DNA from: a virus
Lineage: Duplodnaviria > Heunggongvirae > Uroviricota > Caudoviricetes
Reading direction: 5' to 3' (one strand)
Length of the DNA stretch: 10,146 bases
Virus record (IMG/VR): IMGVR_UViG_2541047850_000007
Location: 1-10,146 of that record
Every line of letters begins with the position of its first letter. Position 1 is the first letter of the stretch. Positions 3,001 to 6,000 of this stretch are shown here, one piece after another. Made by a program: the position numbers.

Positions 3001-6000
3001 AATATCGGTTTGTTACTGGCAATGCTTGGAAAGTTTGATATTTCGTTACGGTGCACCATTGAAAATGCCACAGATGCATTAAATGCTATAAAGAAAGCGA
3101 ATACTGATTTAAATCGGGGATAAATAATCATGAGAACATATTTATCTGGCTTGACTGCCAGCGGTTATGCACACCCCCAAATTATCCCCGGCGCTATTTA
3201 TCTGGATAAGAACGGTAACAGAGTAACGGTAAAAGAACTGATGTTTGACCGTGTGTATTTTATCCGTGATGGCTATTCATTTCTTAGTTCGCTGAACGTG
3301 GAGATCTTTATTAGCAGATTCAGGCGGGAAATCCCGCTTTCCAGAAATAACCATGTGTCATGTATGGATGTTGATAAAAAACTACAGGAACTAAAAAACA
3401 TGATTGCCGCGTGGAGAGAGCAGAAATGAAAAAAGCGCCAAATTTAAAACACCAGCCACGTGACAAAATGACGGAAGTCATCATTTTTGCGGGTAGTGAT
3501 GCGTGGGCACATGCGAAGCAGTGGCAGGAACAGGACGGGCGACTGGCTGGCGATAACGTGCCTCCTGTCTGGCTTGGAGAGCAACAACTTGCCGAACTGG
3601 ACAACCTGCAAATCGTACCGGACGGACGCTATCGCGTGCGTCTCTATCAGGCGGGGTTATTGCGTCCGGGGCTTGTTAATACCATCGGGCAGAAACTGGC
3701 AGCGGCAGGTGTCAGGGATGCTGATTATTACCCTGAAGGAATGCACAGCCAGAAACGGGAGAACTGGCGCGAATATCTGGAACGTGAGCGGGGAGAGCTG
3801 ACGGAAAAGAAAAAGGTAGTTGAACTGCCTGTAAAGAAAAAAGAGCGGGTAAAAGACGATAACGCTTCATCACTGGCGCTTAACCAGATGGGAGCAAGTC
3901 AACGCGGCGAAGTTCTCCTGGCACATTATGGCGGTGAACTGGCGATTCATGCCGACTCTGACACTGTTCACCATTACAACGGCGTTGTATGGGAGCCAGT
4001 ACAGGATAAAGAATTACAGCGAGCTATGGCGCAGATTTTCATTGATGCGGAGATCAGCTATTCGCAGAACGCCATTAAATCGGCGGTCGATACCATGAAG
4101 TTAAGTTTGCCTGTAATGGGGAATACAGCCCGTAACCTGATTGGATTCAGTAACGGGGTATTTGATACCAGAACAGGTAATTTTCGGGAGCATAACAAAA
4201 ACGACTGGTTGTTAATTGCCAGTGAATTACCTTTCAGCCCACCAGCAGAGGGGGAAACGCTGGCAACACATGCGCCGAATTTCTGGAAGTGGTTACGCCG
4301 TTCGGTGGCTGAGAATGACCGCAAGGCGGATCGCGTACTGGCTGCATTATTCATGGTGCTGGCGAACCGGTACGACTGGCAGTTATTCATTGAGGTAACA
4401 GGTCCAGGGGGAAGTGGTAAAAGCGTGATGGCGGAGATTTGCACCATGCTGGCGGGTAAGGCTAATACAGTATCAGCGAGCATGAAGGCGCTGGAAGATG
4501 CAAGGGAACGCGCGTTAGTGGTTGGCTTTTCGCTGATTATCATGCCGGATATGACCCGCTACGCTGGTGATGGGGCGGGAATTAAGGCTATTACAGGCGG
4601 TGACAAGGTGGCAATCGACCCAAAACATAAAGCCCCATATTCAACGCGTATCCCGGCAGTAGTGCTGGCGGTTAACAATAACGCTATGTCATTCAGTGAC
4701 CGCAGTGGGGGGATCTCGCGACGTCGGGTGATATTCAATTTTTCGGAAGTTGTACCGGAGAACGAACGCGATTCAATGCTGGCGGAAAAAATAGAAGGTG
4801 AGCTGGCGGTAGTGATTCGTCATCTGCTTACACGGTTTGCTGACCAGGACGAAGCCAGACGCCTTTTATATGAGCAGCAGAAATCAGAAGAAGCTCTCGC
4901 GATAAAGCGTGAAGGTGATTCGCTGGTGGACTTCTGCGGCTATCTCATGGCGTCGGTAATGTGTGATGGTCTGTTAGTGGGTAATGCCGAAATTATTCCG
5001 TTCAGTCCGCGCAGGTATCTTTATCACGCCTATCTGGCATATATGAGGGCACACGGATTCGGTAAACCTGTAACACTGACGCGCTTCGGTAAAGATATGC
5101 CGGGGGCAATGGCGGAATATGGCAGGGAGTATATGAAACGGAAAACGAAGCACGGTTTGCGTTCAAACGTGACACTGACGGAGGAATCAGAAGACTGGAT
5201 GCCATCATGTGTATCGGTCACTAATGACGATAGCAAAAATTAAACTTATGGAATAACTGTTCACCACTGTTCACCCTGTCATAAATATCTTTTGTATCAG
5301 TATGTTATAGGGTGAACAGTTATTTATGAACTGTTCACCAAACTATTCACTGTTCACCTTTTTGATTGTTTATTGAGCTTCAAGGGTGAACAGTGGTGAA
5401 CAGTTGGTGAATAGTTTTTGTGAAACTGTTCACCCCTTAACATTATGAATTAAAAGATAAAATATCAAAAGGTGAACAGGTGAAGGGTTAAAACGCAAAA
5501 ATTTTAATTTACTGCTGTGAGATAAAGCCTATGACAGCGAAGCACACAAAAAAATCACAATCGCACGCCCTTGATTTGACGGAACACTGGTTAAGGGTGT
5601 CGATAAAAATCATCGACCGCAACGCCGGGGAAGGATACGCGAAAGCACATCCCGACCTGATAAGCGCATTCATGACCACGGCGGCGGCAAACTTTGCCAC
5701 GCTGACAGAACGGGAGATTGCCGAAGCGGAACAGGTAACAACCATCAACGTTAAAACCGGAGAGGTGGAATCATGACAGCACAGATAGCCGCTTACGGGC
5801 GGCTGGTGGACGACCCGCAGGTAAAACAGACCAGCAAGGGCACACCGATGACGCTGGCGCGTATGGCGGTATCGTTGCCATGTAGTCAGGCGCAGGATGG
5901 ACAGGCGACGTTATGGTTATCGGTCATCGCATTTGGCAAACAGGCCGACTTCCTGGCTAAACATCAAAAAGGCGATGTTGCCAGCGTATCCGGCACGATG

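What the first reader, a model, noticed from the sequence alone, without database searches (positions are those of the whole stretch)
5244..5530. Dense array of TGTTCACC octamers: P4-type origin immediately downstream of the primase gene
Nine exact and two degenerate copies in both orientations within about 230 bp, several phased at 10 bp, is far beyond chance for an 8-mer. TGTTCACC is the iteron recognised by the C-terminal DNA-binding domain of P4 alpha at ori and crr. This places the replication origin and supports the alpha-like assignment even though the protein (605 aa) is shorter than P4 alpha.
Basis: partly seen in the sequence, partly recalled or inferred. Interest (0 to 1): 0.65.

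Follow-up and report, generated by a model that had tools for sequence, protein, structure and literature searches.

The report
Satellite replication origin with P4 iterons
The repeat cluster is real and is almost certainly the replication origin of a phage-parasitic chromosomal island (a PICI) of E. coli, read by the helicase-initiator gene just upstream; origins of this kind are already described, so it is a clear example, not a discovery.

Summary
Observation confirmed. Nine exact TGTTCACC copies lie at 5258-5478, against 0.24 expected in the whole window, plus three degenerate copies. They fill the AT-rich 287-bp gap between the rep gene and the next ORF.

Interpretation partly right. The octamer is the annotated P4 'type 1' iteron. 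The upstream protein matches P4 alpha at 48% identity over the SF3 helicase and the C-terminal winged-helix origin-binding domain (PDB 1KA8, E=1e-24).

The element is not P4-like. It has the gene order of the PICI EcCICFT073 (int, alpA, DUF4222, rep, array, ssb, perC, capsid, decoration). EcCICFT073's tested ori sits at the same place with the same arrow layout but a different iteron, TGTCTACC.

In P4 the array after alpha is crr, not ori. This island has only one array. The protein lacks P4's zinc ribbon and Toprim motifs, so 'primase' is unproven.

Comparative evidence is strong:
- Iterons are 92% conserved against 66% for the spacers.
- The layout persists down to 47% protein identity.
- Iteron switches go with changes in the winged-helix wing, and wing plus array are exchanged as one cassette.

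The array is a 230-bp imperfect palindrome with two 35-36-bp AT-rich spacers. One spacer holds a conserved IHF-consensus site. It is a new member of a known kind; interest is low to moderate.

The parts
3426..5243 (+). rep: 605-aa initiator-helicase, annotated 'DNA primase family protein' in RefSeq relatives. It has an N-terminal alpha/beta module, D5_N, an SF3 helicase and a C-terminal winged helix.
   Evidence: Pfam gives D5_N, DUF5906 and Pox_D5. It is 48% identical to P4 alpha residues 290-771 and 48.7% identical over its full length to the EcCICFT073 Pri-Rep. The helicase core matches SaPI5 PriRep5, PDB 7OLA, at E=2e-10.
3426..3821 (+). N-terminal module of Rep (aa 1-132), of unknown role. 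It has no zinc ribbon and no Toprim acidic motifs.
4914..5204 (+). C-terminal winged-helix origin-binding domain of Rep. The wing lies at about 5127-5180.
   Evidence: phmmer against PDB 1KA8 (P4 alpha origin-binding domain) gives E=1.3e-24. The wing sequence and length covary with the iteron type in relatives. A mosaic breakpoint lies at about 5126 in relatives that use TGTCTACC.
5244..5530 (.). ori: the whole intergenic region, an imperfect palindrome of about 230 bp centred near 5372.
   Evidence: inverted repeat I1: arms 5286-5341 and 5404-5459, 75% complementary. As single-stranded DNA, 5254-5487 folds into one hairpin with z=-8.0.
5258..5275 (+). Iterons 1-2, direct, start-to-start spacing 10 bp.
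   Evidence: Conserved in all 6 aligned relatives.
5276..5310 (.). Left AT-rich spacer, 35 bp, 74% AT.
   Evidence: It holds the second least stable 30-mer of the region. The same 35-bp spacer occurs in the P4 ori, in the P4 crr repeats and in the EcCICFT073 ori.
5295..5307 (+). TATCAGTATGTTA, a match to the IHF consensus WATCARNNNNTTR, 3 bp from iteron 3.
   Evidence: It is the only match in the window. The consensus is present at a fixed offset in 50 of 79 related loci and is about 8-fold denser there than in the flanks. It is conserved across iteron types.
5311..5318 (-). Iteron 3, inverted.
5332..5358 (+). Iterons 4-6, direct: 5332, the degenerate copy at 5344, and 5351.
   Evidence: The middle copy is a full TATTCACC or TGTTCACC in relatives.
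5359..5384 (.). Central T-rich spacer, 26 bp, the dyad centre.
5385..5413 (-). Iterons 7-9, inverted: 5385, 5395 and 5406 (TATTCACC). Spacings are 10 and 11 bp.
5427..5434 (+). Iteron 10, direct.
5435..5470 (.). Right AT-rich spacer, 36 bp, 83% AT. It is the best candidate for the first melting site.
   Evidence: 5436-5465 is the least stable 30-mer of the entire 10-kb window, at -28.7 kcal/mol against a mean of -40.6. The motifs TTAAC and ATGAAT inside it are invariant in 7 aligned arrays.
5471..5486 (-). Iterons 11-12, inverted and abutting: 5471 exact, 5479 degenerate.
   Evidence: The second copy is GGTGAACA or GTTGAACA in relatives.
5531..5776 (+). 81-aa ORF of unknown function (phrog_1231), the first gene after the ori.
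   Evidence: A gene is annotated at the same place in relatives.
5773..6183 (+). Island-encoded single-stranded-DNA-binding protein. It completes the replication module.
   Evidence: Pfam SSB, E=1.7e-16. Same position in EcCICFT073.

Best explanation
The array is the vegetative replication origin of an EcCICFT073-type Gram-negative phage-inducible chromosomal island (PICI).

Proposed mechanism:
1. After induction, the int-alpA-rep operon is transcribed. The 605-aa Rep binds the roughly 12 (A/C)ACTGTTCACC iterons through its C-terminal winged-helix domain. The beta-hairpin wing sets the specificity.
2. The iterons are laid out as a dyad: (two direct, 35-bp AT spacer, one inverted), (three direct, 26 bp, three inverted), (one direct, 36-bp AT spacer, two inverted). 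Rep therefore assembles symmetrically.
3. A host bending protein, probably IHF, may help at the consensus site in the left spacer. An AT-rich spacer melts.
4. Rep loads itself as SF3 hexamers, probably one in each direction.
5. The island's own SSB coats the unwound strands, and host DNA polymerase III copies them.
6. Rep shows no recognisable primase motifs, so priming is probably done by another enzyme such as host DnaG or a helper function.

Shown here: the sequence anatomy, the homologies, the conservation and the covariation. Inferred: binding, melting, helicase loading, IHF use and the source of primers.
For: 1. Statistics. Nine exact copies against 0.24 expected.
2. Initiator homology. 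The C-terminal domain matches the P4 alpha origin-binding domain 1KA8 at E=1e-24. The P4 record annotates TGTTCACC as its ori/crr type 1 repeat.
3. Same place and layout as a tested origin. EcCICFT073 has the same gene order, and its Rep is 48.7% identical over the full length. Its 288-bp gap after rep carries TGTCTACC iterons in the same order of orientations. Deleting that region, or rep, impaired replication of a rep-ori plasmid (PMC6092414).
4. Phylogenetic footprint. Against four arrays of about 77% identity, iteron columns are 92% identical and the other columns 66%. None of 286 circular shifts of the mask reaches this difference.
5. The array follows the gene in nearly all of 80 relatives from other genera, down to 47-50% protein identity, with the same orientation pattern. 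The core changes to TGTCTACC, TCTCCACC, TGTCCGCC, TATACACC, GTGTATACC or GTGTTCAT.
6. Covariation with the protein. TGTCTACC users keep 91-97% identity in the helicase but only 64-67% in the binding domain, with a 5-aa insertion (PDKGR, within GPDKGR) in the wing. The TGTCCGCC and TCTCCACC users also have altered wings. DNA identity to L012 is 88-92% through the helicase and falls to about 52% from about 5126 onward. The wing codons and the array are therefore swapped together.
7. Origin-like physical features. The array is a 230-bp dyad. It holds the least stable 30-mer of the window between convergent iterons. It carries a conserved IHF-consensus site. It sits between rep and ssb.
8. Only one array exists in the complete island.
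9. The mechanism follows SaPI Reps: a winged helix binds iterons just downstream of rep, an AT-rich centre lies between them, and the hexamers load themselves (PMC9371898).
Against: - Nothing here is experimental for this sequence. Binding, melting and the replication start site are inferred.
- The EcCICFT073 ori deletion 'significantly reduced' but did not abolish colony formation.
- In P4, a near-identical iteron set placed after alpha (crr) is an auxiliary cis element and not the start site. Position alone therefore does not prove that replication starts here.
- No Rep primase motifs were found, so a necessary step, priming, is unexplained.
- The IHF site rests on a loose 9-specified-base consensus. 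Many of the 50 supporting loci are closely related Xenorhabdus and Photorhabdus elements and are not independent.
- The simple scan found no promoter or terminator. Read-through transcription crosses the array, and a regulatory role cannot be excluded as a second function.
Confidence: 0.85

Rival explanations
1. The array is a crr-like auxiliary cis element. It would be a Rep-binding enhancer, as in P4 where the iteron cluster right after alpha is crr, and the real start site would lie elsewhere in the island.
For: In P4 the cluster directly after the alpha terminator is crr (4291-4590), and ori is 4.5 kb away. The 'two direct, 35 bp, one inverted' module at the start of each crr repeat is also present here.
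Against: No second cluster of TGTTCACC-like sites exists in the whole island or in the complete 16.5-kb relative vB_KppS-Ant, whereas P4 shows two. The left half matches the P4 ori core (two direct, 35 bp, one inverted, 14 bp, three direct) better than it matches crr. In EcCICFT073, rep plus this region alone gave a working replicon (PMC6092414).
Confidence: 0.06
2. The array is mainly a transcriptional control region. Rep or another island regulator would bind the repeats to control the downstream ssb-perC-capsid genes or to autoregulate rep.
For: The array fills the gap in front of the next operon. Iteron-binding initiators often autoregulate. No terminator was found after rep.
Against: No sigma-70-like promoter was found in 5150-5650, against 1.3 expected by chance. 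Twelve sites in a 230-bp dyad with AT-rich unwinding spacers is far more than an operator needs. The homologous region of EcCICFT073 behaves as an ori. A separate operator-like repeat set exists elsewhere, at 2458-2509.
Confidence: 0.05
3. The array is a packaging (cos or pac, small-terminase binding) site or a partition site of the island.
For: The island encodes a Nu1-like small terminase homologue at 9311-9853. Repeated binding sites are typical of cosB and parS.
Against: The repeats are those of the P4 alpha binding site and covary with the Rep wing, not with the terminase. The array is 3.8 kb from the terminase gene. No par genes are present.
Confidence: 0.02

Closest known systems
Replication origin of the E. 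coli PICI EcCICFT073 (Fillol-Salom et al. 2018, ISME J, PMC6092414)
   Same: Same gene order: int, alpA, Icd-like, DUF4222, rep, a gap of about 288 bp, small ORF, ssb, perC, capsid, decoration protein. The Rep is 48.7% identical over its full length. The array sits directly 3' of rep, with the same order of iteron orientations and with AT-rich spacers between iteron sets.
   Different: The iteron core is TGTTCACC here and TGTCTACC there. The winged-helix domain is strongly diverged. The integration site differs: cspD/clpS in the closest genome against roxA/phoQ in CFT073. This island also carries a Nu1-like small terminase gene, which the paper says EcCICFT073 lacks.
Bacteriophage P4 ori (type I iterons; NC_001609 9310-9413)
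   Same: Identical octamer. Read on the opposite strand, the core layout is two direct iterons 10 bp apart, a 35-bp AT-rich spacer, one inverted iteron, 14 bp, then three direct iterons at 10-11 bp. This equals the left half of the array, 5258-5358. The spacer motif next to the inverted iteron is shared (ACAGTAAGTTA against TCAGTATGTTA). The initiators share the helicase and the winged-helix domain.
   Different: The P4 ori is not next to alpha. It has three type II decamers (CCACTTAAAG) that are absent here. It needs crr in cis (GenBank note; own knowledge: Flensburg and Calendar 1987). It is not a full dyad. P4 alpha carries a zinc ribbon and a Toprim primase that this Rep lacks.
Bacteriophage P4 crr (cis replication region; NC_001609 4291-4590)
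   Same: It sits immediately after the initiator gene. It carries the same iterons. Each 120-bp repeat starts with the module of two direct iterons, 35 bp and one inverted iteron.
   Different: crr is two direct 120-bp repeats, not an inverted pair. It lies behind a terminator and is auxiliary to a distant ori. Here there is a single array and no terminator was found.
SaPI origins and self-loading Rep helicases (Ubeda et al. 2007-2012; Qiao et al. 2022, PMC9371898)
   Same: The ori lies immediately downstream of rep. It holds 6-12 short iterons in opposite orientations around an AT-rich region. A C-terminal winged helix recognises them. The helicase loads itself. The helicase core is weakly similar to PriRep5, PDB 7OLA, at E=2e-10.
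   Different: The hosts are Gram-positive. The iterons are 5-6 bp. The Rep sequences are unrelated outside the ATPase core. The pri gene is separate or fused to an active-looking primase.
Dyad-symmetric origins of eukaryotic SF3-helicase viruses (SV40 large T antigen, papillomavirus E1)
   Same: The initiator is an SF3 helicase with its own origin-binding domain. Inverted binding sites flank AT-rich DNA, and two hexamers assemble (own knowledge).
   Different: There is no sequence relationship in the DNA-binding domains. This is an analogy of mechanism only.

Membership tests
Gram-negative PICI origin (EcCICFT073 type) | Lies immediately 3' of the replication initiator gene. | tested here: met
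   The array starts 15 bp after the rep stop codon and fills the gap up to the next ORF.
Gram-negative PICI origin (EcCICFT073 type) | Sets of iterons flank AT-rich DNA. | tested here: met
   About 12 iterons are present. Two spacers of 35-36 bp are 74% and 83% AT, and one contains the least stable 30-mer of the window.
Gram-negative PICI origin (EcCICFT073 type) | Host element has the unidirectional int-alpA-rep organisation and PICI accessory genes. | tested here: met
   Integrase, AlpA, DUF4222, rep, SSB, PerC, capsid E, decoration D and a Nu1-like protein all lie on the + strand. The order is the same as in EcCICFT073.
Gram-negative PICI origin (EcCICFT073 type) | Initiator is homologous to a PICI Pri-Rep. 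| tested here: met
   48.7% identity over residues 1-592 against 1-584 of the EcCICFT073 protein.
Gram-negative PICI origin (EcCICFT073 type) | The rep-ori segment drives autonomous replication, and the island is induced by a helper phage. | not testable with these tools
   This needs a plasmid maintenance assay or Southern blotting. It has been done only for EcCICFT073 (PMC6092414).
P4 replicon (ori plus crr plus alpha) | Type I iteron TGTTCACC in multiple copies and both orientations. | tested here: met
   Nine exact copies here. The P4 annotated type 1 repeats have the same core.
P4 replicon (ori plus crr plus alpha) | Two separate cis elements, ori and crr, both carrying iterons. | tested here: not met
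   One cluster only in the window, in the 98.6%-identical complete island and in vB_KppS-Ant. P4 shows two by the same scan.
P4 replicon (ori plus crr plus alpha) | Type II decamer repeats next to the ori. | tested here: not met
   CCACTTAAAG, allowing one mismatch, is absent from the window.
P4 replicon (ori plus crr plus alpha) | Initiator has a zinc-ribbon and Toprim primase, an SF3 helicase and a winged helix. | tested here: not met
   The helicase and winged helix are present. Zn_Ribbon_Prim and Toprim_3 are found in P4 alpha but not here. The N-terminal fold search is inconclusive.
P4-like satellite | Core genes sid, psu, delta, epsilon and cnr (core set as in PMC8628076). | tested here: not met
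   None was detected by Pfam or PHROGs in the window. The two small ORFs upstream of rep show no similarity to P4 Cnr. The part of the island beyond the window end was checked only through the RefSeq annotation of the close relative.
IHF-assisted iteron origin | IHF binds inside the origin. | tested here: inconclusive
   A consensus match lies at 5295-5307, is the only one in the window and is conserved in position in relatives. No binding data exist, and the consensus is loose.

The most novel reading that the evidence does not exclude
This PICI subfamily uses exactly the P4 type I iteron, and its Rep has lost the primase part. The two satellite families, which parasitise different helper phages, may therefore talk to each other through their origins. 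A co-resident P4-like element's alpha protein (helicase plus active primase) could fire or prime the PICI origin. Conversely, the PICI Rep could occupy the P4 ori and crr and interfere with P4 replication. A related reading is that the single palindromic array is a fused ori-plus-crr. The two iteron sets that P4 brings together by looping would here be hard-wired as an inverted pair. That could explain what crr is for.
Probability: 0.15. Interest if true: 0.55.

Novelty: new member of a known kind. Interest (0 to 1): 0.3.

Why it matters
It fixes the origin and the specificity determinant of a PICI subfamily. This array occurs in 687 of 5,426 complete E. coli genomes, including O157:H7 and O111:H8 strains.

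The natural series of iteron switches, coupled to wing changes and cassette exchange, is a ready-made system for studying how a winged-helix initiator reads its iteron.

It also corrects an annotation habit. These 'DNA primase family proteins' have the P4 helicase and origin-binding parts but no recognisable primase. How these islands prime DNA synthesis is therefore open.

None of this changes the general picture of PICI or P4 replication.

Tried and rejected
- A full-text search for the bare octamer returned only unrelated primer hits.
- The Ziegelin et al. 1993 paper is not held. P4 biochemistry is therefore cited from the GenBank annotation, from secondary papers or from my own knowledge.
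- No second, crr-like cluster was found in the island.
- The three TGTTCAAC hits at 2459-2507 are not iterons. They belong to a different 11-mer, GTGTTCAACAC, in the promoter region of the Icd-like gene. EcCICFT073 has another palindrome at that place, so the motif does not track the iteron type.
- The single exact octamer at 3965 inside rep, a possible analogue of P4 ori2, is absent in a 98.6%-identical island.
- The two small ORFs upstream of rep (2803-3123 and 3130-3429) were compared with P4 Cnr by BLASTP and showed no similarity.
- No P4 type II repeats are present.
- No Rfam family matches. The simple scan found no promoter or terminator.
- The 'median 2 places per genome' is probably the palindrome matching itself on the other strand. 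It was not used as evidence for a second array.
- The afdb50 fold library was not available.
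Full report
**1.

TGTTCACC occurs ten times exactly in the window, and nine copies lie between 5258 and 5478. Five are on the + strand (5258, 5268, 5332, 5351, 5427) and four on the - strand (5311, 5385, 5395, 5471). Dinucleotide-preserving shuffles of the window give 0.24 copies on average and never reach ten.

One further copy has a single mismatch (TATTCACC, 5406-5413, - strand). Two have two mismatches (5344-5351 +, 5479-5486 -). In related arrays these last two positions hold full iterons, so the array has about twelve sites.

The conserved unit is longer than the octamer: (A/C)ACTGTTCACC. 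The interval 5244-5530 is exactly the gap between the stop codon of ORF 3426-5243 and the ATG at 5531. Its GC content is 34-37%, against 49-60% on either side.

**2. What the element is**

All genes of the window lie on the + strand:
- a tyrosine integrase (1-1239);
- an AlpA-type regulator (ORF 1562-1858 as listed; the AlpA match covers its C-terminal part);
- an Icd-like peptide (end of ORF 1869-2810);
- a 106-aa ORF;
- a DUF4222 protein;
- the 605-aa D5_N / SF3-helicase / Pox_D5 protein;
- the array;
- an 81-aa ORF;
- an SSB;
- a PerC regulator;
- a lambda-E-type major capsid protein;
- a lambda-D-type decoration protein;
- a Nu1-like small terminase homologue.

The closest complete genome, at 98.6% identity, carries the island between cspD/yljB and clpS.

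The gene order is that of EcCICFT073, the experimentally studied E. coli phage-inducible chromosomal island. I retrieved it from the CFT073 chromosome. Its 'putative capsid protein' and 'head decoration protein' are mentioned by Fillol-Salom et al. 2018 (PMC6092414). No P4-specific genes (sid, psu, delta, epsilon, cnr) were detected. The element is therefore a Gram-negative PICI, not a P4-like satellite.

**3. The protein next to the array**

It is 48% identical to P4 alpha over alpha residues 290-771, which cover the D5_N region, the SF3 helicase and the C-terminal domain. Its C-terminal ~100 residues match the solved P4 alpha origin-binding winged-helix domain (PDB 1KA8) at E=1.3e-24. Its helicase core also matches the SaPI5 PriRep5 helicase (7OLA) at E=2e-10.

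P4 alpha has Zn_Ribbon_Prim and Toprim_3 domains in its first 300 residues. The window protein has neither, and its first 165 residues hit no Pfam or NCBIfam model.

I conclude that primase activity is unproven and rather unlikely. The same N-terminal module is fused to AAA_25/RepA-like ATPases in other proteins, so it behaves as an independent module.

**4. Comparison with P4**

The P4 GenBank record annotates 'ori type 1 repeat' features in both ori (9310-9413) and crr (4291-4590). Their sequences are TGTTCACC or one-mismatch variants.

However, alpha (4636-6969, - strand) is followed by its terminator and then by crr. ori lies about 4.5 kb away between ORF88 and sid. The P4 element that corresponds in position to the window array is therefore crr, not ori.

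In layout, the P4 ori core read on the opposite strand is: two direct iterons 10 bp apart, a 35-bp AT-rich spacer, one inverted iteron, 14 bp, and three direct iterons. This is the layout of the left half of the window array, with gaps of 35 and 13 bp. Each crr repeat begins with the same module of two direct iterons, 35 bp and one inverted iteron.

The P4 type II decamers are absent. Only one cluster exists in the whole island and in the complete 16.5-kb relative vB_KppS-Ant, whereas P4 shows two by the same scan.

**5. Comparison with the tested PICI origin**

[quoted passage not shown] They also report that a plasmid carrying EcCICFT073 rep plus this region replicates, while rep or ori deletions are impaired.

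The EcCICFT073 Rep is 48.7% identical to the window protein over its full length. Its 288-bp gap after rep carries TGTCTACC iterons in the same order of orientations: two direct, one inverted, three direct, two or three inverted, one direct, two inverted. The window array is thus the positional and architectural homologue of an experimentally supported origin, with another iteron.

**6. Evidence that the array is under selection and belongs to this protein**

(a) The 306-bp region occurs in 687 of 5,426 complete E. coli genomes, always at the end of a 'DNA primase family protein' gene.

(b) I aligned it with six relatives. In the four divergent ones (about 77% identity), iteron columns are 92% identical to the window and the remaining columns 66%. 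No circular shift of the iteron mask (0 of 286) reaches that difference.

(c) A scan of one genome per species found 80 loci with relatives of the protein. They come from Klebsiella, Raoultella, Kluyvera, Pectobacterium, Serratia, Xenorhabdus, Photorhabdus, Erwinia, Zobellella and others. Nearly all carry a repeat array in the 450 bp after the gene. The orientation pattern is kept down to 47-50% protein identity.

(d) The core differs between lineages:
- TGTTCACC in most;
- TGTCTACC in L012, L017, L020, L025 and EcCICFT073;
- TCTCCACC in L023;
- TGTCCGCC in L024;
- TATACACC in L081;
- GTGTATACC in L083;
- GTGTTCAT in L084.

(e) These switches track the protein. The TGTCTACC relatives keep 91-97% identity in the helicase (83% in the more divergent L025) but 64-67% in the binding domain. 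They carry a five-residue insertion (PDKGR, within GPDKGR) in the beta-hairpin wing. The TGTCCGCC and TCTCCACC users also have altered wings.

(f) DNA identity between the window and L012 is 88-92% through the helicase, about 75% in the first part of the binding domain, and about 52% from about 5126 through the array. In a relative with the same iteron (L004) it stays at 76-81% across the array. The wing codons and the array are therefore exchanged as one cassette. This is what is expected for a specificity determinant and its target.

**7. Anatomy and likely mechanism**

The array is a large imperfect palindrome. Arms 5286-5341 and 5404-5459 are 75% complementary. As single-stranded DNA the whole of 5254-5487 folds into one hairpin at z=-8.0. 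The EcCICFT073 and L083 arrays also show excess self-complementarity, at z=-5.1 and -6.2.

The array consists of three convergent modules:
- 5258 and 5268 direct, 35-bp AT spacer, 5311 inverted;
- 5332, 5344 and 5351 direct, 26 bp, 5385, 5395 and 5406 inverted;
- 5427 direct, 36-bp AT spacer, 5471 and 5479 inverted.

The right AT spacer contains the least stable 30-mer of the whole 10-kb window (5436-5465). The left spacer contains the next least stable of the region.

The left spacer also contains TATCAGTATGTTA at 5295-5307. This is the only match in the window to the IHF consensus WATCARNNNNTTR, and it lies 3 bp from the inverted iteron. An exact match sits at a fixed offset in 50 of 79 related loci, about eight times denser than in their flanks. 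A similar motif is kept in P4 ori and in EcCICFT073 despite different iterons. Many of these loci are closely related, so the count overstates the independent support.

No sigma-70-like promoter or intrinsic terminator was found, so transcription from upstream probably reads through the array.

Putting this together with what is known for P4 alpha and for SaPI Reps gives the following model. For P4 alpha, origin recognition, helicase and primase lie in one protein, with a winged-helix domain after the SF3 helicase (PMC2777425; Ziegelin et al. 1993 and Yeo et al. 2002 from my own knowledge). For SaPI Reps, a winged helix binds the iterons, the centre is AT-rich, and two hexamers are thought to load themselves (PMC9371898).
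- Rep binds the iterons through its winged helix.
- A bending protein, probably IHF, helps.
- An AT spacer opens.
- Rep loads as hexamers in both directions.
- The island SSB (5773-6183) covers the single strands.
- The source of primers is open.

All steps from binding onward are inferences.

**8. Rivals**

A crr-like auxiliary site is disfavoured by the absence of any second cluster and by the EcCICFT073 plasmid result.

A purely regulatory array is disfavoured by the lack of a promoter, by the size and symmetry of the array, and by the homology to a tested origin. A secondary regulatory role is not excluded.

A packaging or partition site is disfavoured because the repeats covary with the Rep wing.

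**9. Novelty and verdict**

Origins of Gram-negative PICIs have been described and one was tested (PMC6092414). The P4 iteron has been known since the 1980s-90s.

What this window adds is a member whose iteron is exactly the P4 one and whose left half copies the P4 ori core. It sits in an island family whose Rep has lost the primase part. I could not check whether this iteron type is already drawn in Fig. 2a of that paper, because figures are not held.

I rate it a new member of a known kind, of low to moderate interest. The most novel reading still open is origin-level cross-talk between P4-like satellites and these PICIs, or that the palindromic array is a fused ori-plus-crr.

Noticed in passing
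window 2458-2509: Three direct copies of the 11-mer GTGTTCAACAC (arms GTGTT/AACAC) lie just upstream of the Icd-like gene; the middle copy directly follows a TTGAC. EcCICFT073 has two copies of a different palindrome (GTGGGCCACAC) at the same place. This looks like a module-specific operator of the early promoter, unrelated to the iterons.
   Followed up: partly
window 1869-2810: The 313-aa ORF is probably not a gene as a whole. Only its last 85 residues or so match Icd-like cell-division inhibitor families. In close relatives this stretch holds short minus-strand genes (YlcI/YnfO-like) and a divergent promoter region.
   Followed up: partly
window 5295-5307: TATCAGTATGTTA is the only match in the window to the IHF consensus WATCARNNNNTTR. 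It lies 3 bp from an inverted iteron. Its position is conserved in 50 of 79 related loci, and a similar motif occurs in the P4 ori and the EcCICFT073 ori.
   Followed up: partly
window 3426-3821 (Rep aa 1-132): The N-terminal alpha/beta module of Rep has no family assignment. In other E. coli proteins it is also found fused to AAA_25/RepA-like ATPases and to a second type of D5_N helicase. It is a mobile module of unknown role, shared by otherwise different PICI initiators.
   Followed up: partly
window 5127-5180 and loci L012, L017, L020, L025, L024, L023: Natural specificity switches. Relatives with TGTCTACC iterons carry a 5-aa insertion (PDKGR, within GPDKGR) in the wing of the winged-helix domain. 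The wing codons and the array are exchanged together as a cassette, with a breakpoint near 5126.
   Followed up: yes
window 7275-8677 and 9311-9853: The island encodes lambda-type major capsid (E) and decoration (D) protein homologues and a Nu1-like small terminase homologue. No portal or large terminase is present in the window. EcCICFT073 has the capsid and decoration genes but is reported to lack a small terminase.
   Followed up: no
L087 and L088, positions about 28-90 (Pantoea): About 3 kb upstream of the alpha homologue there is a module of two direct TTCACTG repeats, a spacer of about 33 bp and one inverted copy, with an ACAGTAATTAA motif. This resembles a P4-ori-type module placed away from the gene. 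No array follows the gene in these loci.
   Followed up: no
window 3965-3972 and 3933-3940: An isolated exact TGTTCACC and a one-mismatch inverted copy lie inside the rep coding region. The exact copy is absent from a 98.6%-identical island, so it is probably chance and not an analogue of the P4 internal ori2.
   Followed up: yes
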